Origin: Gammaproteobacteria bacterium BRH_c0
GTDB taxonomy: Bacteria; Pseudomonadota; Gammaproteobacteria; Pseudomonadales; Porticoccaceae
NCBI GenBank assembly: GCA_000961645.1
Contig: LADM01000128.1
Coordinates: forward strand, 9,945 to 33,944
Direction of reading: 5' to 3'
Length of the DNA stretch: 24,000 nt
Shown: piece by piece, positions 1,087 to 24,000 of the stretch
Layout: every line of letters starts with the position of its first letter
Position numbering within the stretch: position 1 is the stretch's first letter
The notes under the pieces: model-generated
What the model was told of the DNA's origin: nothing
The model's input: the letters and a program-made list of their open reading frames with translations, nothing else
The model's database searches: none
Made by a program: the position numbers and the translations under genes

Positions 1087-2349
1087 TTATTCGATCCGAA
1101 AGTCAGTGCTCAAAGCCCGCCAATGCGCTTCTAACTGCTCTTTATGGTTATGCTGCATGGGCAGGTCTGTGAGTGCTGATGTCCATAGTGTCCTGGCTTT
1201 GTCGAGGGTGTCGTTCAGGTGAGGCTTGATTGCGCGCCAAGGTATGTCTGCTTTTTCTGACCAGGTCTTGAAATCTCCAAGGTTTGCCTTGTACCAGTCT
1301 TTGTTATTCCCCAAATTCAGCGCCAACAGCCGTTCTCCAGCGATGTACGTTTTAGTGGTGAGTATGTCGTAGGCCGGGGACAGTTCCGGTGTGCTCTTGT
1401 CGGGGTAGATCACGCTCCAGTTTTTCAGATGAGCATCGCCATTGGCTAGCAATATGTTCACCAGTAGTCGGCGGGCGAATTGCTGTACATTGGCCAAGGG
1501 GTCACCGGTGTACTGATAGAGGACTTTGCCAATCTGTTCTGCGTTGGCGCTGTCGTATTTTTCATGGGGATACTTGACCAGAATTTGCGCGAAATCCTCC
1601 ATGTGTATTCGCTGGCTGTTGTGTCTGTCGAAGCGGCGTATGGCAAAGGCAAATTGCTCGTTGGGGAGGTTGATGGGAGGTAGTGCTCCCAGCTTCTCAA
1701 TCTCTACCAAGCGAATATCGGGGATGTCGATGCCAGCCAATTCTGCCAGCCGCATTGCTGTGTATTCGTTCAACGGCACATTAGCGTGTTTGGTGGATGG
1801 GGTTTTGACGATCCAGTCTCCGAGATCTCCCGATTTGGCTATCTGATAGCGCCCTTCCTTTTCCCGCATGGAGAACTTCATCTGGATGCCTGCCAGAGAG
1901 AAGCGATTGGTCTGGTCTTGTACTGCGGGTTTGATCGCCCTGGCGTTGCCTATGGCGTTGAGAACGTAGCTGGGTATTTCGCCTGGATCTAGCGGCGTCG
2001 CGATCACCGCACCAGGCAGATCCTGCCCCAAGTATGTGAATAACTTAAATTCGTTATCGATATGAATCTTCAGCATTTGCGCTAGCAGCTCGCGCAATGC
2101 GCCTTCAGGTAGAAGATTCGACAGAACCGGGTGTAATCGTTGCCGCCTTGCCCATGGTGTTCGCAGTACTTTATTGACGTGGGGGAAAGTAGGGTGGGTA
2201 ATAAGAGTGAATGTAGGCCGCGAGTTGTCGGCGATAAACTCTGGTGCAAAGTGAAGAACATTGCGCCCATCCTGGAATCCTGTCAGGTATCCGACAGTGG
2301 CATTGTGGAGACTGAGTTTGAGCACGCTTGCGTCCAGCACGGTCGTCAT
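1087..2349 (-). CDS. hipA: HipA-like serine/threonine kinase toxin (type II TA)
   Basis: 420-aa ORF. The N-terminal HipA coupling region reads LHNATVGYLT...HFAPEFI. The loop FSLAGIQMKFSM is the counterpart of HipA SLAGAQxK. The catalytic motif reads NGDAHLKNWSVIY. The start overlaps the upstream HTH gene by 4 bp (ATGA). Confidence 0.9.
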   Translation of the reverse strand: MTTVLDASVLKLSLHNATVGYLTGFQDGRNVLHFAPEFIADNSRPTFTLITHPTFPHVNKVLRTPWARRQRLHPVLSNLLPEGALRELLAQMLKIHIDNEFKLFTYLGQDLPGAVIATPLDPGEIPSYVLNAIGNARAIKPAVQDQTNRFSLAGIQMKFSMREKEGRYQIAKSGDLGDWIVKTPSTKHANVPLNEYTAMRLAELAGIDIPDIRLVEIEKLGALPPINLPNEQFAFAIRRFDRHNSQRIHMEDFAQILVKYPHEKYDSANAEQIGKVLYQYTGDPLANVQQFARRLLVNILLANGDAHLKNWSVIYPDKSTPELSPAYDILTTKTYIAGERLLALNLGNNKDWYKANLGDFKTWSEKADIPWRAIKPHLNDTLDKARTLWTSALTDLPMQHNHKEQLEAHWRALSTDFRIE

Positions 2350-15089: not shown

Positions 15090-15213
15090 TCCGGGCGTAG
15101 CAAAAGCGGTGGGTTGCTCTGGCTGAAGAAGTCATACATTGTTGACACATTTGACAGGTGTTAAATCAAGAAAGAAGGCTGGCAGTCTCCTACCTTGAGA
15201 AAAGAATATAAAT

Positions 15214-15298
15214 CGTAGGTTGGGCTGACGGAGGATGCCCAACACTACTTCAGAAGCGGAGAGAAAATGTTGGGCTTCCTCCGTCAGCCCAACCTACG
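15214..15298. repeat. 31-bp inverted repeat (1 mismatch) with 23-nt loop; possible bidirectional terminator or repetitive extragenic element
   Basis: The left arm cgtaggttgggctgacggaggatgcccaaca (15214..15244) is the reverse complement of the right arm tgttgggcttcctccgtcagcccaacctacg (15268..15298) except at one position. It lies between two convergent genes, ending at 15089 (+) and 15372 (-). A T-rich tract follows the hairpin on the minus strand. Confidence 0.8.
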
Positions 15299-15371
15299 TG
15301 CTAAATTTGCCAAACGAGACGGACGGCACATTGCCAATCCACACGACACATGCGCGTGGTTGCTGCTTCTG

Positions 15372-17582
15372 CTAACGCCGAGACTGCTCGATTGCCAATT
15401 GAAGATCAGCAACTCGGTCAGCGAATTCACCATCTTGCATGCTTGCCAAGCGCGCGGTCACATGGTCCCAATCGAGAAACCGAGTAACGGTCTCTTTGGC
15501 GAGAGGGTAATAGACTTTGTCACTTATCAACCAGCTCCTAAGCTGGTTCAGGATAGCAAGAAAGCCCTCGTTGGATTCGCTATATTCTCTAACCCACTCC
15601 ACAGCTTGATTGTCTTCAGTTAAGTCTAACCAACCATATAGATAGGCTGAAATATTCGGCAGATTTGGGATCAGCTCTTTTGTATCTTGTCGGCTTAGGC
15701 GCTCTTTCAAGATATCAATAGCTTCATCCAGAACCTCATCCGAAATTTCCCATTGCTCTGAACTCTCTGCTTCGTCTCCAATTCTTCCATGGCGAGAAAG
15801 TTGACTTCTGAAGAACACTCCAACCAACCAATTGATGGCCTTTCCCTCGCGTGCTATCTGTCGGAAAACCGCTGCCTGCCTCTCGGGATTCAATTCCCCT
15901 AATCGCTCAAGGCAGCTTTTCGCAACATCGTTGGCAATCCTGTCAGGCGAGAAAATGAATGCATTAAGCCCGTGATTCTTTTTCATCGCAAAATCCATCA
16001 TTCCGGCTAGCGCTAGGACTATTCCAGCCAGCTGATCTTCATCAAGATCTGATATGTACTTATCGTCTAGCCTATCAAGCACATGCTCAAACCATGTTCT
16101 ACCTGAATTGCGACGCTTCATCGCTTCTTCGGTAAGGCGAGTCGTTAATTGCGCGACATCTTCGCGAGCCATTTCCAATAGAGTATTGAACTCTTGATCT
16201 GGCATGACGGTCTTTGGTCCTGTAAGCGCAAAATAAAATCGATAGTGTAATGGGCTGCCAAGCCGTTTAAGACCGATTGTTTCAGAAACTGCCGACGGAC
16301 TAATCGGGTTAAAAACACGCGCAACGGCTTCTTCTTCAACAGCTACGCCGGGAATGAAACGTTGCAAACACCAAATTGAACCAGTTGACTCCCGGTCTTC
16401 TGAAGGTAAGAGCATCTTTAGCTCTTCACCCATTTTTGCTTTTTCATCTTTTGAAACGGTCGCGTCTCTCGTAATCAATACGGAACGAACCGATAGGTAA
16501 ACCTCAAGCCACTTATATAGTTTATAGTGTGTAGTTTTGATCAGTTGCAGACGGCAAAAATCCGGGAAGTACACATCGTCTTTAACCTGTGGGAACACAA
16601 AACGAATACTGTTCAAAGAAAGTTTGACTTCACGCGGCGTGGATAATCCCTCGCCTTCCCGGTCGACGGCCGACATTAAATCTTCCAATAATGCACCCTC
16701 TAAATTTTTGCCCATTACTTCGCGATAGATGGCTTTCGCCTCTTCTAAGAACTGAGTTCGAAGATCGAATGGCTCTGGAAGTGGAATATTGAAGGTGAGT
16801 TGCACAATTTTCTGAAGAAAAAGATCTCCATCCGCAACTTTAAGGCCTGTCGTCAGCGCATGGGCTAAGACCTCTCTGTCATAACACATCAGGTAAGCGA
16901 CTCTTGGAAAGTCAGCGACCGAACGAACCAACCGAATGACCTCGACCGCTTGTTCAGGTTCGAGGCGGTCAAGATCGTCGAGTATGATAACAAAGCCAAT
17001 ATCTAATTCTTGAAACTTGTGCGCTAATTCTTGCTTAATCTCAGATGGGGTTGGCTCCAAAGGTAACACTTGATCTGCCGCATTTGCCCCTGCTTCCAGA
17101 ACACCACCCAAAGCCTGTGCGCCAGGAATAACGTACCCAGCAACGTTTGCAACCGAAGCGATCCTGCGGGCCGTCTTTGGTCCATAGGCACGGAGTAGTC
17201 GGCCGACATTGGCCATCCTTTCTTTCATTAGGTTCGCTTGCTCTCCACTAGCTAACGCGATTTGTTCTTCTCTCTTCTTCAATATTGCCGTCATTGGCTC
17301 CAGCAAGGACGAGACCAAAGACGAAGTATCCCCATTCAGCCATGGCGCGATTGTAATGGTATGAATTCCATCATCCTGTGCGACCTCTAGTTCGGCTCGA
17401 AGGAAGTTCAAGAGTGATGTCTTGCCTGAGCCCCACCGACCCTCAAGTCCAATGACCATGCCATCACCTTTCGATGCATCAATGATTGATGGCGCGAGTC
17501 GTTTGGCTATGCCTGCGAACCCGAACTGATCCTTTGCCTCGTCTTCGAGTGCGCGGTCTGAATCCAGAGCTGTCGTCATCAC
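15372..17582 (-). CDS. KAP-family P-loop NTPase
   Basis: 736 aa. Walker A is GLEGRWGSGKTSLLNF. Walker B and its context read GFVIILDDLDRLEPEQAVEVIRLVRSVADFPRVAYLMCYDREVL, characteristic of KAP NTPases. A long helical C-terminal region follows. GGAGAAG precedes the ATG. Spot GC counts are about 37-50%, versus 60-65% in neighbouring genes. Confidence 0.9.
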   Translation of the reverse strand: MMTTALDSDRALEDEAKDQFGFAGIAKRLAPSIIDASKGDGMVIGLEGRWGSGKTSLLNFLRAELEVAQDDGIHTITIAPWLNGDTSSLVSSLLEPMTAILKKREEQIALASGEQANLMKERMANVGRLLRAYGPKTARRIASVANVAGYVIPGAQALGGVLEAGANAADQVLPLEPTPSEIKQELAHKFQELDIGFVIILDDLDRLEPEQAVEVIRLVRSVADFPRVAYLMCYDREVLAHALTTGLKVADGDLFLQKIVQLTFNIPLPEPFDLRTQFLEEAKAIYREVMGKNLEGALLEDLMSAVDREGEGLSTPREVKLSLNSIRFVFPQVKDDVYFPDFCRLQLIKTTHYKLYKWLEVYLSVRSVLITRDATVSKDEKAKMGEELKMLLPSEDRESTGSIWCLQRFIPGVAVEEEAVARVFNPISPSAVSETIGLKRLGSPLHYRFYFALTGPKTVMPDQEFNTLLEMAREDVAQLTTRLTEEAMKRRNSGRTWFEHVLDRLDDKYISDLDEDQLAGIVLALAGMMDFAMKKNHGLNAFIFSPDRIANDVAKSCLERLGELNPERQAAVFRQIAREGKAINWLVGVFFRSQLSRHGRIGDEAESSEQWEISDEVLDEAIDILKERLSRQDTKELIPNLPNISAYLYGWLDLTEDNQAVEWVREYSESNEGFLAILNQLRSWLISDKVYYPLAKETVTRFLDWDHVTARLASMQDGEFADRVADLQLAIEQSRR

Positions 17583-17820
17583 TTCTCCATTTTAAATTTC
17601 TTGTATCCTAGAGTACTTGCAGATGACTCACCCCAAGTTATGGAGTGTCTGCATGGTGCTTAGCAAAGTCTTTCAGTCCGGAAGCTGCGGTAGCTATCTT
17701 CCTCGCGATTCACGAAACACAAAAGGTCTGCTGTGGGTCGAATAAAGACAATATTTCACCATGAGCCACTTCGATTAATGCTGCTTAAACCAAGTAGCTA
17801 TGAATGATCTGAATTGAATA

Positions 17821-17846
17821 GCGCCCCGAAATATCTCCAGGGCGCC
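17821..17846 (-). terminator. Weak candidate rho-independent terminator downstream of the beta-propeller gene
   Basis: gcgccc (17821..17826) pairs with gggcgc (17840..17845) around a 13-nt loop. It lies 14 nt after the stop at 17860 and is followed on the minus strand by tattcaattcagatcattc. Confidence 0.35.
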
Positions 17847-17859
17847 ACAATCGACATGC

Positions 17860-18933
17860 TTACTTTTCAGTGTCTGAACTGAGATCAACCCGCAACAGCT
17901 GATTACCCACAAATGAACCCGCATAAAGATAATCCCCCACCACAACACCCACGGTGCCAGCGCCCATGGGCGGGCCAACCTGTTCGTGCAGCACGGTCAG
18001 TTTCATAGTGTCTGGGTCGATGGACTGCACCTTGAAGGGTGCGAGGCAGGGGCCGGTGGTGAAGCAGGTTTCGGGCAGGGGGCCACTGATGCCGGTGACC
18101 AGCAGTTTGCCATCCGGTGCCCAAGAGAAGTTGTCGGGGAAGGCCTTGACCTTGCCCAGTTCCTCGCCGGTGGCGTAGTCAATTTTGGTGACAAAGCCTT
18201 CGCCGCCTTCGGCGATAAATACATGGCGACCATCCTTGCTTACCGCTACGCCGTTGGTGAGGTTGGTGTCGCTGCCGGGCAGTTTGTCGACACCCTTGCC
18301 GGGCAGCCAGCGCCACAGGTTGCCGGTGTCGCCGGTGCGGGTCATGGCGGTCATCATGTCCTGGCCGTTGAGTTCAACCATATGCGATACCAGCAGGCCG
18401 CCGCCGGGGAGGGCAGCCACATCGTTGAGCTGGCTCTGTGGCGGCATCACCACGCAGCCGCGCCAGGCGAGGGCGGGTTTGCCCTGTTGCTCGACAATTT
18501 CAAACATTTCGACGGATTCGCGCGTGTGATTGACCGCGAGCAATTGCCAGGGGCCATCCTGACGCTGTGAAATATCGATGCCGTGGGCGGCGAATACATC
18601 GCCGGGGTTGGATTCGCAGCCGTTGTCGTCCCAGCGCTTTGGTGCGTTTTCCTTCACGTAGGCGATGGTTTCGGCCTTCAGGGTCTCTGTATCGAACAGG
18701 TAGAGGGGCAGGGGGTGCTCGCCTTCGAGGCCGCCAAAGGGGCTGAGCAGCAGGTGCTTGCCGTCGGGCATGACGTCGATGTCTTCCGGGGCGGGAAAGC
18801 CGCAGATGGCCTGGGCGTTGCCAACGGTTGCGCAATTGGGTTGCTCTACTGGTTTGGCGGCTTCGGCCATCAGGCCGACGCTGCTAAGGGTGAGGATGGC
18901 TGTCGCCAAAAGCTTGAGTTTATGGTTTTTCAT
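17860..18933 (-). CDS. Secreted six-bladed beta-propeller protein (SMP-30/gluconolactonase/LRE or arylesterase-like)
   Basis: The start is moved to the ATG at 18933, where MKNHKLKLLATAILTLSSVGLMAEA is a Sec signal peptide. Propeller-type motifs include PEDIDVMPDGKHLLLS, TNLTNGVAVSKDGRHVFIAE, PDNFSWAPDGKLLVTG and DYLYAGSFVGNQLLRVDL. The subfamily is uncertain. Confidence 0.8.
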   Translation of the reverse strand: MKNHKLKLLATAILTLSSVGLMAEAAKPVEQPNCATVGNAQAICGFPAPEDIDVMPDGKHLLLSPFGGLEGEHPLPLYLFDTETLKAETIAYVKENAPKRWDDNGCESNPGDVFAAHGIDISQRQDGPWQLLAVNHTRESVEMFEIVEQQGKPALAWRGCVVMPPQSQLNDVAALPGGGLLVSHMVELNGQDMMTAMTRTGDTGNLWRWLPGKGVDKLPGSDTNLTNGVAVSKDGRHVFIAEGGEGFVTKIDYATGEELGKVKAFPDNFSWAPDGKLLVTGISGPLPETCFTTGPCLAPFKVQSIDPDTMKLTVLHEQVGPPMGAGTVGVVVGDYLYAGSFVGNQLLRVDLSSDTEK

Positions 18934-19209
18934 TGTTATTCCCTGTGGTTTTTGAAGTTGTGATGCCAGCAATAAACCCATGTTCTCTGGATGGGCGCAT
19001 TATTGGGCAGGCGTTGCCCTGCTGGTGGTCAAAAAGGGTGCGGGCGGGGGATTGCCTTGACCCCGGCTCTTAAATGGGTTCAGCTGGTGGTATTAACCCT
19101 GCTCAGGCCGTCTATAGTAAACGGGTATCCCTGTGAATTTAAAGGGCAGCGGGTGTCGGCTGTAAAAAGCATGGGCTTGCCCGCTAATCAGGCACAGAAC
19201 TTGCTGAAC

Positions 19210-19239
19210 TGGAATGTAGAGGATTGGAATGTAAGGGAA
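19210..19239. repeat. 15-bp tandem repeat x2, plus a partial third unit, upstream of the ATP-grasp operon
   Basis: The units are tggaatgtagaggat (19210..19224) and tggaatgtaagggaa (19225..19239), followed by tgggag... The repeat lies 70-100 bp upstream of the ATG at 19310. Confidence 0.75.
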
Positions 19240-19309
19240 TGGGAGCCGCCGGTTGCTACTGCGGGCCGCGCGACTGGCAATAACCAGAAACACTACTGAC
19301 AGGTTGATA

Positions 19310-20764
19310 ATGGCTATCGATTGGAAGGCCTATAACCCCGAGGGGTTGTATGACGAGATCATCAGTTCACCCGGTAACCCACGCGTACCCGCTAAAAGCC
19401 TGGTTTCTTATCTGAGATCCCTCAGCGATGAGCAGCTGCAGGCGCGGCGCGCCAGTGCCGATGCCGTGATCAAGCAGATGGGCATTACCTTCACGGTTTA
19501 TTCCGAAGAGGGCAATATCGATCGATCCTGGCCCTTTGACATTATTCCCCGCGTTATCGCCCTCAAGCAGTGGCAAAAAACGGCCGCCGGGCTGGAGCAG
19601 CGCCTGCGCGCTTTGAATCTGTTTATTGACGATCTCTATCACGATCAGAAAATCGTCAAGGACAAGGTATTCCCCGAGTACATATTGCAGGAGTCGAAAA
19701 ACTTCCGCCCCGAGTGTGTGGGCATATCGCCTCCTTTTGGGGTGTGGGCGCATATTTGCGGCACCGATCTGGTGCGCGACAAGGATGGCCGGTTTTATGT
19801 GCTGGAGGATAACCTGCGGGTGCCTTCCGGCGTTTCCTACATGCTCGAAAACCGTGCAATTACCAAAAGGGTGCTGCCGGATCTGTTTGATACCGAAAAA
19901 ATCCTGCCGGTAAATGACTACACCTCGAACCTGCTCGAAGCCCTGACGTCGCTGTCGCCACGCAAGATCAGTCGCCCTTCCATCGTGGTGCTGACACCGG
20001 GCATCTACAACTCCGCCTATTTTGAACATGCCTTCCTCGCCCAGCAGATGGGCGCCGAGCTGGTGGAGGGCAGCGATCTGATGGTGGCGGATGACGAGTG
20101 TGTGTACATGAAAACCGTCGATGGCCTGGAGCGGGTGGATGTCATCTACCGTCGCATCGATGACCTGTTTATCGACCCCGAGGTGTTCAACGCGGAGTCG
20201 GTGCTGGGTGTGCCGGGACTGATGCGGGCCTGGAAAAAGGGCAATGTGGCCCTCGCCAATGCGCCGGGCGCCGGCGTGGCGGACGACAAGGTGGTGTATG
20301 CCTTTGTGCCGCAAATCATCAAGTACTACCTGGATGAAGACCCGCTTATTCCCAATGTCGAAACCTATCTGTGCGTCAACGACAAGGAGCGGGAATACGT
20401 GCTGGCCAACCTCGACAAACTGGTGGTCAAGCCCGCCAATGAATCGGGCGGGGCGGGCATGTTGATTGGGCCGCATTCCACCAAAAAAGAGCGCACCCTG
20501 TTTGCCGAGCTGATTCGCAAGAATCCCCGCAATTATATCGGTCAGCCTACCCTGAGCCTCTCCACGGTTCCCACGTTGGTGGACGGCAACGACCTTGAGC
20601 CGCGCCATGTGGATTTGCGTCCCTTTATTATCCAGGCGGAAAAAACCTCGGTCACCACTGGCGGGCTGACCCGCGTGGCGATGAAGCGCGGCTCCCTGGT
20701 GGTGAATTCTTCCCAGGGCGGTGGTAGCAAGGACACCTGGATTGTCGATACGGGGGCTAAATAA
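19310..20764 (+). CDS. Circularly permuted type-2 ATP-grasp protein (COG2308-like)
   Basis: The start is moved to the ATG at 19310 (MAIDWKAYNPEGLYDEI...). Family-typical segments include ITFTVYSEEGNIDRSWPFDIIPRVI, LFIDDLYHDQKI, GTDLVRDKDGRFYVLEDNLRVPSGVSYMLENR, VVKPANESGGAGMLIGP and LVVNSSQGGGSKDTWIV. Confidence 0.9.
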   Translation: MAIDWKAYNPEGLYDEIISSPGNPRVPAKSLVSYLRSLSDEQLQARRASADAVIKQMGITFTVYSEEGNIDRSWPFDIIPRVIALKQWQKTAAGLEQRLRALNLFIDDLYHDQKIVKDKVFPEYILQESKNFRPECVGISPPFGVWAHICGTDLVRDKDGRFYVLEDNLRVPSGVSYMLENRAITKRVLPDLFDTEKILPVNDYTSNLLEALTSLSPRKISRPSIVVLTPGIYNSAYFEHAFLAQQMGAELVEGSDLMVADDECVYMKTVDGLERVDVIYRRIDDLFIDPEVFNAESVLGVPGLMRAWKKGNVALANAPGAGVADDKVVYAFVPQIIKYYLDEDPLIPNVETYLCVNDKEREYVLANLDKLVVKPANESGGAGMLIGPHSTKKERTLFAELIRKNPRNYIGQPTLSLSTVPTLVDGNDLEPRHVDLRPFIIQAEKTSVTTGGLTRVAMKRGSLVVNSSQGGGSKDTWIVDTGAK

Positions 20765-21699
20765 TGCTGTCGCGAGTTGCAGAACGCATTTACTGGATGA
20801 GCCGCTATCTGGAGCGGGTGGAAAATACTGCCCGGCTGATGGGGGTTTATACCAATCTGCTGATGGATATGCCTGCCGGAGTCAATATCGGCTGGTACAA
20901 CCTGGTCAGTCTCAATGACGCGGAGGAGTGGTTTGATGCTCACTATCGCGTGCGGGACGAGCGCAATGTCATGAAGTTTTTACTGGCTGACCGCGATTAT
21001 CCCGGCTCCATTGTCAACTCCCTGCAGGGCGTGCGCGAGAATATCCGCACCAGCCGCGATGTGGTGCCAGCGGAATCCTGGGAATACATCAACGAGCTTG
21101 CGCTGTACGTGCAGGATAACCAGAGCGCCGGAATCAATCGCGGGCAGCGCCACGAATTTATTGCCCAGGTGATTAAATCTTGCCAGCAACTGCAGGGGCT
21201 TTTTGTGAGCTCGATGATTGACGGGCAGGCGAAGAATTTTTTGCGCCTGGGGCGCAATATCGAGCGCGCTGATATGACCACCCGTATCCTCGATGCGGGT
21301 ATAGGCGTTGTGCTTGAAAATAACGGTAATGTATTGCCGACCACGGAATCCATTATCTGGGCCAATGTGCTGTATTCCCTCAGTGCTTATCTGCCCTATA
21401 CCAAGCGCCAGCGCAAATCCGTGAAGGGGGCGAGGGTGGCCAGGTACCTGCTCGAAGATGCCACCTTGCCGCGCACCATCCGCTTCTGCGGTGAAAGCAT
21501 GGCCACTGTCTGCAAGACGCTGCCGCGCAACAAAAAGGTGCTGAAAAAAATTGACCAGATTCGCAAAAGTCACTACCCGCCACTGGATGATGACAATGCG
21601 GTACTGGACGTTGGATTTAGCGACTACCTCAATGAGCTGCAATTGTTGATCGGCAGCGCCCACGAACTGTTTGCCGAAACCTGGTTTACCCTCGACTAG
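20764..21699 (+). CDS. Alpha-E domain protein (COG2307-like)
   Basis: The N-terminus MLSRVAERIYWMSRYLERVENTARL is the hallmark of alpha-E proteins. A second hallmark, FLRLGRNIERADMTTRILD, is also present. The gene overlaps the ATP-grasp stop by 1 nt (TAATG). Confidence 0.9.
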   Translation: MLSRVAERIYWMSRYLERVENTARLMGVYTNLLMDMPAGVNIGWYNLVSLNDAEEWFDAHYRVRDERNVMKFLLADRDYPGSIVNSLQGVRENIRTSRDVVPAESWEYINELALYVQDNQSAGINRGQRHEFIAQVIKSCQQLQGLFVSSMIDGQAKNFLRLGRNIERADMTTRILDAGIGVVLENNGNVLPTTESIIWANVLYSLSAYLPYTKRQRKSVKGARVARYLLEDATLPRTIRFCGESMATVCKTLPRNKKVLKKIDQIRKSHYPPLDDDNAVLDVGFSDYLNELQLLIGSAHELFAETWFTLD

Positions 21700-21735
21700 T
21701 GCTCTACATCTAGTCCAAACAGAAGAGCTGATTCC

Positions 21736-24000
21736 ATGACGATACGTGTAGCCATACACCACAAAACCCGCTACGACTATGATCGTCTGGTGGCCCTTGC
21801 GCCGCATATTTTGCGGCTGCGCCCTGCGCCCCATTCGCGTTCGCCGATTCACAGCTACAGCCTGAAAATCGAGCCGCAGGATCACTTTATCAACTGGCAA
21901 CAGGACCCCTTTGGCAATTACCAGGCGCGCCTGGTGTTTCCGGAAAAGGCCCGCAGTCTGTCCTTTGAAGTGGAAGTGATCGCCGACATGACGGTCTACA
22001 ACCCCTTTGATTTTTTTGTTGAAAGCTATGCCGACAAATTTCCATTCACCTACGACGATCAGTTGAAAAGGGAGCTGGGGCCTTATCTGGAAAAGGAAAA
22101 GGGCGGCCCGCTGTTTGATGCCTGGGTAAAATCCATCCAGGGCAAAAACATGCCGATCATTGATTTTCTGGTGATGATCAACCAGCGCCTGGAAAAGGAA
22201 ATCGATTACAGCCTGCGTTTTGAGCCGGGGGTGCAAAACCCGGAAGATACGCTCAAATTGCACAACGGTTCATGCCGCGACAGCGGCTGGCTGATGGTGC
22301 AACTGATGCGCCATCTGGGGCTTGCTGCCCGCTTTGCCTCTGGCTACCTGGTGCAGCTGACTTCCGATGTGAAATCCCTCGATGGCCCTTCCGGCCCGGA
22401 AGCGGACTTTACCGACCTGCACGCCTGGTGCGAGGTGTACCTTCCTGGCGCGGGCTGGGTCGGCCTCGACCCAACCTCCGGGCTGTTTGCCGGAGAGGGC
22501 CATATTCCCCTCGCCTGTACGCCGGACCCGATTTCCGCCGCGCCCATTACCGGCGCCACCGACGAATGCGAAGTCACTTTTAGCTACAGCAATGAAGTGA
22601 TTCGCATCCATGAAGACCCGCGGGTCACCAAACCCTACAGCGAAGACCAGTGGCAGTGCATCGACGCCCTCGGCAATTTCATAGATGCTGAATTCAAGAC
22701 TAACGATGTGCGGCTTACCATGGGTGGTGAGCCGACCTTCGTGTCGATCGATGATATGGATTCGGCCCAGTGGAATACCGAGGCGCTGGGTGAGGACAAA
22801 CTCTCCCTCGCCAAGGATCTGCTGTTGCGGCTGCGCGACCGTTTTGCCCCCAACGGCCTGCTCCATTACGGCCAGGGCAAGTGGTACCCCGGCGAGGAAG
22901 TGCCGCGCTGGGCGCTGGGCTGCTTCTGGCGCACCGACGGCCTGCCCCTGTGGCACGACCCAAAACTGCTGGCGCGTGTGGATAAATCCTATGGGCTGGG
23001 CCAGAAGGATGCCGAGTTGTTTGCCAAAACCCTCAGCACCATGGCCGGGATCAGCCCGGACTTTGTCAATCCCGCCTACGAGGACACCCTTTATTACCTG
23101 TGGAAGGAGCAAAGCCTGCCGCCGGGCATTGATTCCCACAAGGCCAATCTCAAGGATGGCCTCGACCGCATGCGCCTGGCGCGGGTGCTCAGTCAGGGCC
23201 TTGATAATCCGAGCGGCTATGTGTTGCCGGTGGGCTGGGATGAAGGGCTGGGCGGCTGGTACAGCACTCCCTGGGAAATGAAAGCGGGCAAGGTGATCTT
23301 GATTCCGGGGGATTCCCCAATGGGATTGCGCCTGCCACTCAACTCTCTGCCGGTGATCAGGCCCGAAGACGTAGAGCCGCCCCGCGATCCGTTCGAAGAG
23401 CGCGCCCCGTTGGTGGAAAGCATCGTTCCCGACAAGGATTATTCCCCCGCCTGGGGCAAAGTGGTACTGCAGAAGCCGGGCGATGTGAAACGCGCTGCAT
23501 CGGCAGCCAAAACCCCGCCACCAGCAGCCGCCAAAAAACCGGCTGCCCCCAAGCCGGTGTTGCGCACCGCGCTGTGTGTGGAAGTTCGCCAGGGCAAACT
23601 GTATGTGTTTCTGCCGCCCCTGGAGCAGCTTGAGCATTTTGTCAGCCTGATCAATCTGGTGGAGCGTACCGCCCAGGTTCTCGATACGCCGGTGGTGATC
23701 GAGGGCTATGAACCGCCCCGCGACAGCCGTATCCAGAAACTGCTGGTAACCCCCGATCCGGGTGTGATCGAGGTGAATATCCACCCCGCCAGCAACTGGC
23801 AGGATCTGGTGGCCAACACCACGGCGCTGTATGAAGAGGCCTTTCTGTCGCGCCTTGGCACCGAAAAGTTCATGCTCGATGGCCGTCATACCGGCACCGG
23901 CGGCGGCAACCATGTCACCCTCGGCGGCTCCACTCCGGCGGACAGCCCGCTGCTGCGCAGGCCCGACCTGTTGCGCAGCCTGATCACCTACTGGCAGCAC
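21736..24000 (+). CDS. Large transglutaminase-family protein with DUF2126-type C-terminal region; partial, 755 codons, runs off the right edge
   Basis: Absent from the ORF track because there is no stop in the window. Translation from the ATG at 21736 gives MTIRVAIHHKTRYDYDRLVALAPHILRLRPAPHSR... The catalytic core is NGSCRDSGWLMVQLMRHLGLAARFASGY...DLHAWCEVYLPGAGWVGLDPTSG (Cys-His-Asp). The end reads GGGNHVTLGGSTPADSPLLRRPDLLRSLITYWQH. I found no stop at any point I checked in this frame, and the last 755 codons fit the window exactly. Confidence 0.93.
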   Translation, partial: MTIRVAIHHKTRYDYDRLVALAPHILRLRPAPHSRSPIHSYSLKIEPQDHFINWQQDPFGNYQARLVFPEKARSLSFEVEVIADMTVYNPFDFFVESYADKFPFTYDDQLKRELGPYLEKEKGGPLFDAWVKSIQGKNMPIIDFLVMINQRLEKEIDYSLRFEPGVQNPEDTLKLHNGSCRDSGWLMVQLMRHLGLAARFASGYLVQLTSDVKSLDGPSGPEADFTDLHAWCEVYLPGAGWVGLDPTSGLFAGEGHIPLACTPDPISAAPITGATDECEVTFSYSNEVIRIHEDPRVTKPYSEDQWQCIDALGNFIDAEFKTNDVRLTMGGEPTFVSIDDMDSAQWNTEALGEDKLSLAKDLLLRLRDRFAPNGLLHYGQGKWYPGEEVPRWALGCFWRTDGLPLWHDPKLLARVDKSYGLGQKDAELFAKTLSTMAGISPDFVNPAYEDTLYYLWKEQSLPPGIDSHKANLKDGLDRMRLARVLSQGLDNPSGYVLPVGWDEGLGGWYSTPWEMKAGKVILIPGDSPMGLRLPLNSLPVIRPEDVEPPRDPFEERAPLVESIVPDKDYSPAWGKVVLQKPGDVKRAASAAKTPPPAAAKKPAAPKPVLRTALCVEVRQGKLYVFLPPLEQLEHFVSLINLVERTAQVLDTPVVIEGYEPPRDSRIQKLLVTPDPGVIEVNIHPASNWQDLVANTTALYEEAFLSRLGTEKFMLDGRHTGTGGGNHVTLGGSTPADSPLLRRPDLLRSLITYWQH

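What the first reader, a model, noticed from the sequence alone, without database searches (positions are those of the whole stretch)
15100..17860. Solitary KAP-family NTPase on a ~2.7-kb low-GC islet: candidate PifA-like phage-exclusion gene
- **Composition:** Spot GC counts within 15121..17760 are 37-50%, versus 60-65% in the pilin and ATP-grasp genes on either side. This argues for horizontal acquisition.
- **Content:** The only gene is a 736-aa KAP P-loop NTPase.
- **Family link:** The KAP family is named partly after PifA, the F-plasmid protein that aborts phage T7 infection. A stand-alone KAP NTPase in an islet is therefore a reasonable abortive-infection or defence candidate.
- **Difference from many KAP proteins:** I see no convincing transmembrane hairpin inserted between Walker A and Walker B. 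There is only one mildly hydrophobic stretch, VANVAGYVIPGAQALGGVLEAGANAA. This protein may therefore be a soluble variant with a different effector mechanism.
- **Partners:** No partner gene is evident on the islet.
Basis: partly seen in the sequence, partly recalled or inferred. Interest (0 to 1): 0.6.

Follow-up and report, generated by a model that had tools for sequence, protein, structure and literature searches.

The report
Horizontally acquired PifA-type phage-exclusion gene
The low-GC islet carries one intact gene that is a full-length relative of PifA, the F-plasmid protein that aborts phage T7 infection; it is a good but ordinary example of a known single-gene defence cassette that moves among marine bacteria.

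Summary
A strain-specific 2.77-kb stretch (15090-17859) has 47.5% GC, against 57.4% for the genome. It holds a single intact gene on the minus strand, 15372-17579, 735 aa from the ATG.

The gene is a full-length PifA-family member, not merely a KAP NTPase:
- It scores 884 bits end to end on the PADLOC PifA model, where F-plasmid PifA itself scores 963.
- It aligns with F PifA at 31% identity over 720 residues (E 2e-127).
- Walker A and Walker B motifs are intact.

The missing transmembrane hairpin is real, but F PifA lacks one too, so it does not mark a new variant.

None of 40 relatives, and none of 399 other class-level genomes sampled, has an orthologue. Copies 70-80% identical occur in both Gamma- and Alphaproteobacteria, always as a lone gene of 44-50% GC. 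They lie in an ICE, beside type I R-M, SIR2/Dsr1 and HNH genes, or between IS elements. dN/dS is about 0.1-0.17.

There is no pifC repressor and no partner gene. My best reading is a single-gene abortive-infection sensor and effector of the PifA type. Function is inferred from homology and context only. It is a new member of a known kind and of modest interest.

The parts
15372..17579 (-). pifA-family gene, 735 aa from ATG 17579 (an alternative GTG at 17582 gives 736 aa), stop codon at 15372-15374
   Evidence: ORF; KAP_NTPase, 1.6e-40; PADLOC PifA, 884 bits, model positions 2-719 of 720; 31% identity to F PifA over 720 aa; homologues share the MTT..LDSDRALE start; dN/dS 0.05-0.17
17418..17441 (-). 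Walker A codons G48-R-W-G-S-G-K54-T55
   Evidence: Invariant in 24 homologues; aligned with GAWGSGKTS of F PifA
16965..16994 (-). Walker B codons F197-VIIL-D202-D203-L-D205-R206
   Evidence: D202, D203, L204, D205 and R206 are invariant; aligned with VVMDDLDRLEP of F PifA
17067..17240 (-). Helical hairpin (residues about 115-172) inserted between the Walker A and Walker B strands. It occupies the position where other KAP NTPases, as I recall the family description, carry transmembrane helices. Here it is Ala/Gly-rich and not hydrophobic enough to span a membrane.
   Evidence: AF2 model helices H115-148 and H155-172, with low pLDDT at 139-175; maximum KD19 of 1.29
17583..17859 (-). 277-bp strain-specific upstream spacer. 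GGAGAA ribosome-binding site at 17583-17588. A promoter is presumed, but none was found by consensus scan.
   Evidence: unique in the genome; about 100 nt are loosely shared with other cassettes
15300..15371 (-). 3' flank that still travels with the cassette, alignable with the Parahaliea copy
   Evidence: blastn alignment at 81% identity spans window 17605..15300 only
15205..15300 (.). REP-like inverted repeat native to this genome. It marks the point where cassette homology ends and is not part of the transferred gene.
   Evidence: sequence; arms recur on at least 10 other contigs of the genome
15181..15194 (-). Terminator-like hairpin with a T tail downstream of pifA
   Evidence: This is a consensus match only, and the count is within shuffle expectation.

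Best explanation
The islet is a horizontally acquired single-gene defence cassette encoding a PifA-family KAP P-loop NTPase.

By homology with F-plasmid PifA, I infer this sequence of events:
1. The protein idles in the cell, probably attached peripherally to the inner membrane.
2. One or more proteins made by an infecting phage switch it on. For F PifA and T7 these are gp1.2 and the capsid protein gp10.
3. In a nucleotide-dependent step it makes the membrane leaky and shuts down macromolecular synthesis, so the infected cell dies or stalls before phage are released (abortive infection).

What is shown here: family membership, intact catalytic motifs, purifying selection, foreign origin, solitary organisation, and association of close homologues with mobile elements and defence genes.

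What is inferred: the anti-phage phenotype, the trigger, the membrane effect and the abortive outcome.
For: - Family membership. PADLOC PifA model: E 2.2e-266, 884 bits, model positions 2-719 of 720; F PifA scores 963 bits on the same model. BLASTP against F PifA: 31% identity and 53% positives over 720 aa, E 2e-127. About 35-36% identity over the full length to plasmid genes, two of them (both Serratia marcescens) annotated 'pifA: phage T7 exclusion protein'.
- Intact gene. Walker A and Walker B are invariant. dN/dS against seven homologues is 0.05-0.17.
- Foreign origin. GC is 47.6% against 57.4%, and GC3 is 45% against 68%. No orthologue in 40 relatives. None in 399 other sampled genomes of the class at E<=1e-100. 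PifA is 80% identical to a Parahaliea copy, while a neighbouring housekeeping-type ATP-grasp protein is only 67% identical to that genome's version.
- Context of close homologues. ICE cargo beside a RES-Xre pair and a DEDDh exonuclease. Directly after type I R-M and before a SIR2-STAND gene. Between a Dsr1-like SIR2 gene and an HNH gene. IS- or TniQ-flanked copies.
- Organisation. It is always a lone gene with different neighbours. PADLOC lists a PifA model; as I recall, PifA is treated there as a single-gene system.
- Literature. PifA senses T7 products and acts by membrane depolarisation or leakage (PMC8594841, PMC8125068, PMC11990801). KAP NTPase domains drive defence in other single proteins, and this depends on Walker B (PMC13552941).
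Against: - No experiment exists on this protein or on any member of its marine clade.
- Identity to the only characterised member is 31%.
- F PifA has a very narrow known target range, and the BASEL authors question whether defence is its primary role (PMC8594841).
- This copy and the Halomonas copy sit among housekeeping genes, not in a defence island.
- There is no pifC regulator, and no promoter was found by consensus scan, so expression is unproven.
- The structure search gave no significant match that would show an effector mechanism.
Confidence: 0.75

Rival explanations
1. The gene is a true PifA-family gene, but its selected role is not phage defence. It might act in competition between mobile elements, or in their maintenance or exclusion, with phage exclusion being incidental, as has been suggested for F PifA.
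For: F PifA affected only two or three phages of the BASEL panel, and the authors suggest another primary function (PMC8594841). Many homologues are cargo of plasmids, an ICE, or IS-flanked segments.
Against: Several close homologues are wedged directly between recognised defence genes: type I R-M, SIR2-STAND, Dsr1-like and HNH. This copy and the Halomonas copy persist on chromosomes without any mobile-element backbone. That is hard to reconcile with a role serving a plasmid or ICE.
Confidence: 0.15
2. The gene is a silent or decaying passenger left by a past transfer or rearrangement, and has no current function in this genome.
For: It lies at a synteny breakpoint. In congeners the pilus cluster and the SGL/ATP-grasp cluster are unlinked. 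No consensus promoter was detected, and there is no regulator.
Against: The frame is intact at 735 aa and all catalytic residues are present. dN/dS is 0.1-0.17 even against the nearest copy. There is a good Shine-Dalgarno sequence. The coding sequence is identical in a metagenome scaffold.
Confidence: 0.06
3. It is a generic KAP NTPase of another defence type, such as QatA or PDC-S20, or a membrane-signalling KAP protein rather than PifA.
For: Weak hits to QatA and PDC-S20 models over the NTPase domain.
Against: Those hits score 21-57 bits and cover the N-terminal part only, mostly the P-loop NTPase domain, against 884 bits full-length for PifA. NCBIfam QatA scores 34 bits against a cut-off of 600. 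There are no QatBCD-like neighbours and no transmembrane segments.
Confidence: 0.02

Closest known systems
PifA of the E. coli F plasmid (NC_002483 42445-44670), the phage T7 exclusion protein; the PADLOC system 'PifA'
   Same: - Same length class (735 vs 741 aa).
- Collinear alignment over 720 residues.
- Same KAP P-loop domain, with the Walker A GxWGSGKTS and Walker B hhhhDDLDRLEP motifs.
- Same long helical C-terminal region.
- Same absence of hydrophobic transmembrane segments.
- Near-equal score on the PifA model.
   Different: - Only 31% identical.
- Chromosomal rather than plasmid-borne.
- No pifC repressor gene upstream, and none elsewhere in the genome.
- Marine host, so the triggering phage and its proteins must differ from T7 gp1.2 and gp10.
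- Phenotype untested.
Marine PifA-like cassettes (Parahaliea mediterranea, Marinobacter nauticus VT8, Sulfitobacter, Halomonas/Vreelandella, Chromohalobacter, Celeribacter), annotated only as 'KAP family P-loop NTPase fold protein'
   Same: - 67-80% identical over the full length.
- Same single-gene organisation.
- Same low GC of 44-50% whatever the host.
- Same start and length.
   Different: Each copy has different neighbours: ICE, R-M/SIR2 island, IS-flanked, or housekeeping. Here the gene lies between a type IV minor-pilin operon and a beta-propeller (SGL) gene, next to a native REP-like repeat.
KAP-NTPase single-protein defences (EF_KAP and relatives, PMC13552941) and QatA of the Qat system
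   Same: [quoted passage not shown] In EF_KAP, defence requires Walker B and the C-terminal region.
   Different: - EF_KAP has two transmembrane helices and is reported as not abortive.
- QatA works with QatBCD.
- Similarity to this protein is limited to the NTPase domain (43-57 bits).

Membership tests
PifA family (PADLOC PDLC02361) | Full-length match to the PifA profile at a score comparable to the founding member | tested here: met
   884 bits, E 2.2e-266, model positions 2-719 of 720. F PifA scores 963 bits.
PifA family (PADLOC PDLC02361) | Collinear homology with F-plasmid PifA across both the NTPase and the C-terminal regions | tested here: met
   BLASTP residues 9-718 against 14-723, 31% identity, E 2e-127.
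PifA family (PADLOC PDLC02361) | Intact Walker A and Walker B motifs of the KAP P-loop domain | tested here: met
   G48..K54-T55 and D202-D203-L-D205-R206 are invariant in 24 homologues and aligned with F PifA.
PifA family (PADLOC PDLC02361) | Acts alone as a single-gene system | tested here: met
   No conserved neighbour in 8 distinct homologue contexts or in this window. That it suffices alone functionally was not tested.
PifA family (PADLOC PDLC02361) | Excludes a phage by abortive infection with membrane leakage, triggered by phage proteins | not testable with these tools
   Needs phage challenge. Known only for F PifA (PMC8594841, PMC8125068).
F-plasmid pif operon (pifC-pifA) | PifC/RepC-type repressor gene immediately upstream of pifA | tested here: not met
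   The 277-bp upstream spacer holds no gene. No PifC homologue was found in the 93.7%-complete genome. pifC-like genes are present in F and in a Serratia plasmid.
KAP P-loop NTPases (Pfam PF07693; Aravind et al. 2004, from my own knowledge because the paper is not held) | KAP-type P-loop domain | tested here: met
   PF07693, E 1.6e-40, 139.6 bits against a cut-off of 20.
KAP P-loop NTPases (Pfam PF07693; Aravind et al. 2004, from my own knowledge because the paper is not held) | Two or four transmembrane helices inserted within the NTPase domain (typical of the family, not universal) | tested here: not met
   A helical hairpin insert is present at residues 115-172, but the maximum KD19 is 1.29. 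F PifA gives 1.27.
Qat system (QatA) | QatA equivalog score and QatBCD neighbours | tested here: not met
   NCBIfam QatA scores 34 bits against a cut-off of 600. Neighbours are pilin and SGL genes.

The most novel reading that the evidence does not exclude
The marine PifA clade may be a self-sufficient, regulator-free cassette that hops between Alpha- and Gammaproteobacteria without mobility genes of its own and keeps about 47% GC in every host. It may sense proteins of marine T7-like podoviruses. Its Ala/Gly-rich helical hairpin, which replaces the transmembrane insert of other KAP NTPases, might be the part that engages or perforates the membrane on activation. If so, it would offer a simple and tractable model for the still unknown effector mechanism of PifA.
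Probability: 0.2. Interest if true: 0.5.

Novelty: new member of a known kind. Interest (0 to 1): 0.27.

Why it matters
PifA is one of the oldest known abortive-infection proteins, yet its mechanism and structure remain unsolved. No PDB relative was found by sequence or by fold.

This work shows that the family is large: 530 clusters at 50% identity reach E<=1e-30, and nearly all of the best 150 listed are about 700-770 aa and align end to end. It includes a well-conserved marine clade that travels as a bare single gene without the PifC repressor.

For annotation, such genes, now labelled only 'KAP family P-loop NTPase', can be called PifA-family defence candidates. For this genome the result is an ordinary accessory defence gene and does not change what is known.

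Tried and rejected
- **Integron-cassette idea.** I aligned 130 nt downstream and upstream of eight cassettes. No conserved attC-like site or terminal repeat appeared. Flanks are alignable for about 70 nt and only with the nearest copy. Rejected.
- **The 31-bp inverted repeat at 15205-15300 as an islet end or att site.** It is a dispersed repeat native to this genome, with arms on at least 10 contigs. It is not part of the cassette.
- **Simple insertion into a conserved empty site.** In congeners the two flanks are on different contigs with other neighbours: POR genes next to SGL, and AraC/RecQ or TauE/purU/folD after the pilus operon. In this genome the POR genes are on C129. The gene therefore lies at a rearrangement junction, and no empty site could be shown.
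- **Rfam scan of 14900-18100.** Nothing found.
- **Promoter and terminator scan.** No promoter on the gene's strand, and terminator hits were within chance.
- **PDB by sequence.** Only P-loop noise, E>=0.05.
- **Foldseek of the AF2 model (pLDDT 74.7, pTM 0.48) against the PDB.** No hit at E<=0.001. The weak top hits were RdrA, Apaf-1/CED-4, ORC/Cdc6 and STAND ATPases. These fit a STAND/AAA-like NTPase but are not evidence.
- **E. coli genomes by DNA.** No match.
- **Papers not held.** Aravind et al. 2004 and Schmitt et al. 1991 could not be read, so statements about them rest on my own knowledge or on citing papers.
Full report
**What is there**

The minus-strand ORF 15372..17582 is open for 736 codons from a GTG. 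The codon after that GTG is an ATG at 17579. GGAGAA lies at 17583-17588, with its GGAG core 5 nt upstream of that ATG, and all seven homologues compared begin with the same M[TA][TS].LD.DRALE N-terminus. The gene is therefore 15372-17579, 735 aa.

Only ORFs of 42 aa or less lie wholly within the 277-bp upstream spacer; a 67-aa frame (17775-17978) overlaps its edge. The 118-aa plus-strand ORF at 15267-15623 starts inside a repeat, overlaps the gene antisense, and has no Pfam hit. The islet therefore holds one gene.

**Composition and edges**

- The genome (3.53 Mb, 140 contigs, 93.7% complete) is 57.4% GC.
- The gene is 47.6% GC and the 15090-17859 stretch 47.5%. That is the 2nd percentile of all 2.2-kb windows.
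- GC3 is 45% against a mean of 68% (sd 7) for long ORFs.
- In 400-bp windows the islet runs 44-50% and the flanks 55-62%.
- Homology to congeners ends at 15085, the stop of the last pilus-operon gene, and resumes at 17881, the 3' end of the SGL beta-propeller gene.

**Identity**

- Pfam gives KAP_NTPase for residues 23-327 at E 1.6e-40.
- The PADLOC PifA model matches from position 2 to 719 of 720 at 884 bits, E 2.2e-266. The next-best models, PDC-S20 and QatA, reach only 57 and 43 bits, over the N-terminal NTPase region.
- NCBIfam QatA scores 34 bits against a cut-off of 600.
- F-plasmid PifA (NC_002483 42445-44670) scores 963 bits on the same PifA model. It aligns with this protein over 720 residues at 31% identity and 53% positives, E 2e-127.
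- Walker A (G48-RWGSG-K54-T55) and Walker B (D202-D203-L-D205-R206) are invariant among 24 homologues and match F PifA.
- A whole-library HMMER search finds 530 clusters (50% identity level) at E<=1e-30. Nearly all of the best 150 are about 700-770 aa and align end to end.
- The nearest listed relatives of F PifA rank 20th to 28th in that list.

This is a bona fide PifA-family protein well inside the family, not at its edge.

**Transmembrane question**

The maximum 19-residue Kyte-Doolittle mean is 1.29, at VANVAGYVIPGAQALGGVL, which is below what a membrane-spanning helix needs. F PifA reaches only 1.27.

The AF2 model (24-sequence alignment, mean pLDDT 74.7) has a confident C-terminal helical region, mostly above 90. 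It places a helical hairpin (H115-148, H155-172, low confidence at 139-175) between the Walker A and Walker B strands. That is the site where, to my recollection of the family description, other KAP NTPases carry transmembrane helices. The PifA family as a whole therefore has a non-hydrophobic hairpin there.

**Foreign origin**

- None of 40 relatives (5 same genus, 19 more same family, 16 same order) has an orthologue. They have only weak P-loop hits.
- None of 399 other sampled genomes of the class reaches E<=1e-100 on the PifA model. Only two candidates per genome were scored in that search.
- Proteins 67-80% identical occur in Gammaproteobacteria (Parahaliea, Marinobacter, Halomonas/Vreelandella, Chromohalobacter, Oceanisphaera, Marinospirillum) and in Alphaproteobacteria (Sulfitobacter, other Roseobacteraceae, Celeribacter).
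- The Parahaliea copy is 80% identical. The neighbouring ATP-grasp protein is only 67% identical to that genome's orthologue, but 72-87% to congeners that lack PifA.
- In every host examined the gene keeps 44-50% GC against flanks of 51-65%.
- dN/dS is 0.05-0.17, so the gene is under purifying selection.

**How it sits here**

DNA similarity to the nearest copy (81%) covers only window 17605..15300. That is the gene plus about 25 nt upstream and about 70 nt downstream. It stops at an inverted repeat (15205-15300) whose arms recur on at least 10 other contigs, so this is a native REP-like element.

In congeners the two flanks are not neighbours. The SGL gene lies next to 2-oxoacid:ferredoxin oxidoreductase genes, which are on contig C129 in this genome. 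The pilus operon is followed by AraC/RecQ genes or by TauE/purU/folD genes. The gene therefore sits at a rearrangement junction, and no empty site could be reconstructed.

A metagenome scaffold 98.9-100% identical shows the same order across both junctions.

**Context of homologues**

| Host or source | Neighbourhood |
|---|---|
| Parahaliea | Cargo inside an ICE conjugation module, beside a RES-Xre pair and a DEDDh exonuclease |
| Marinobacter nauticus VT8 | Directly after hsdM-S-R, before a SIR2-STAND gene and GmrSD |
| Second Marinobacter context | Resolvase, type I R-M and a PDC-S02/YhcG nuclease |
| Sulfitobacter | Between a Dsr1-like SIR2 gene (269 bits) and an HNH gene, with HigBA and an IS nearby |
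| Chromohalobacter and an ENA contig | Flanked by IS elements |
| Celeribacter | Next to TniQ |
| Halomonas | Solitary among housekeeping genes, as here |

No neighbour is shared between contexts, so the gene moves and presumably acts alone.

Enterobacterial plasmids pair pifA with a pifC-type regulator. No PifC homologue is found in this genome. An unlinked FxsA homologue exists. FxsA is reported to sequester F PifA at the membrane (PMC8125068).

**Mechanism**

For F PifA, the literature held here says that T7 gp1.2 and the capsid protein gp10 trigger it, and that cell death follows through membrane depolarisation or leakage (PMC8594841, PMC8125068, PMC11990801). It also reports a narrow target range and doubts about its primary role (PMC8594841). 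Other KAP-NTPase fusion proteins protect against phage in a manner that depends on Walker B and on the C-terminal region (PMC13552941).

I infer the same logic here:
1. An NTPase switch sits in the N-terminal half.
2. A large helical C-terminal region serves as the sensor or interaction surface.
3. The outcome is abortive and directed at the membrane.

No step of this was tested. Sequence and fold searches of the PDB gave nothing significant. The weak top hits (RdrA, Apaf-1/CED-4, ORC/Cdc6) only fit a STAND/AAA-like ATPase.

**Verdict**

This is a new member of a known single-gene defence family, in a marine clade that lacks the PifC regulator. Interest is modest. The useful points are the annotation upgrade and the availability of a compact, regulator-free PifA relative for mechanistic work.

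Noticed in passing
window 15205-15300: Near-perfect inverted repeat whose arms recur on at least 10 other contigs of the same genome. It is a REP/MITE-like dispersed element, and its plus-strand reading gives the spurious peptide MLGFLRQPNLR. Cassette homology to the Parahaliea copy ends exactly at its edge.
   Followed up: partly
window 9763-15089 versus 17860-24000: The type IV minor-pilin operon and the SGL/ATP-grasp/Alpha-E/transglutaminase cluster are adjacent only in this genome. In congeners they lie on different contigs with other neighbours, and the POR genes that flank SGL there are on contig C129 here. The pifA gene marks a rearrangement junction.
   Followed up: partly
window 13047-15089 (+): The 680-aa last gene of the minor-pilin operon sits in the PilY1-like position. 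It has no Pfam or PADLOC hit, although it is 67-78% identical in congeners.
   Followed up: no
control genomes: The PifA model reaches E<=1e-100 in the Thermotoga maritima control genome, so full-length PifA-family genes extend well beyond Proteobacteria.
   Followed up: no
L035 5405-10222 (Sinorhizobium meliloti pSmeSM11a): The rhizobial PifA-like gene (about 45% identical) is bracketed by two co-directional hypothetical genes, with gaps of 70 and 28 bp. This may be a three-gene arrangement, unlike the solitary marine cassettes.
   Followed up: no
L034 (JGI metagenome 3300030426 scaffold): A scaffold 98.9-100% identical to window 9405-20451 exists in a public metagenome. The flanks carry a few mismatches and the aligned part of pifA none. 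This suggests the genome is a MAG or close strain from that or a similar sample.
   Followed up: partly
window 1087-2349 (-): A 420-aa protein gives weak PADLOC hits to the candidate system PDC-M03A (26 bits).
   Followed up: no
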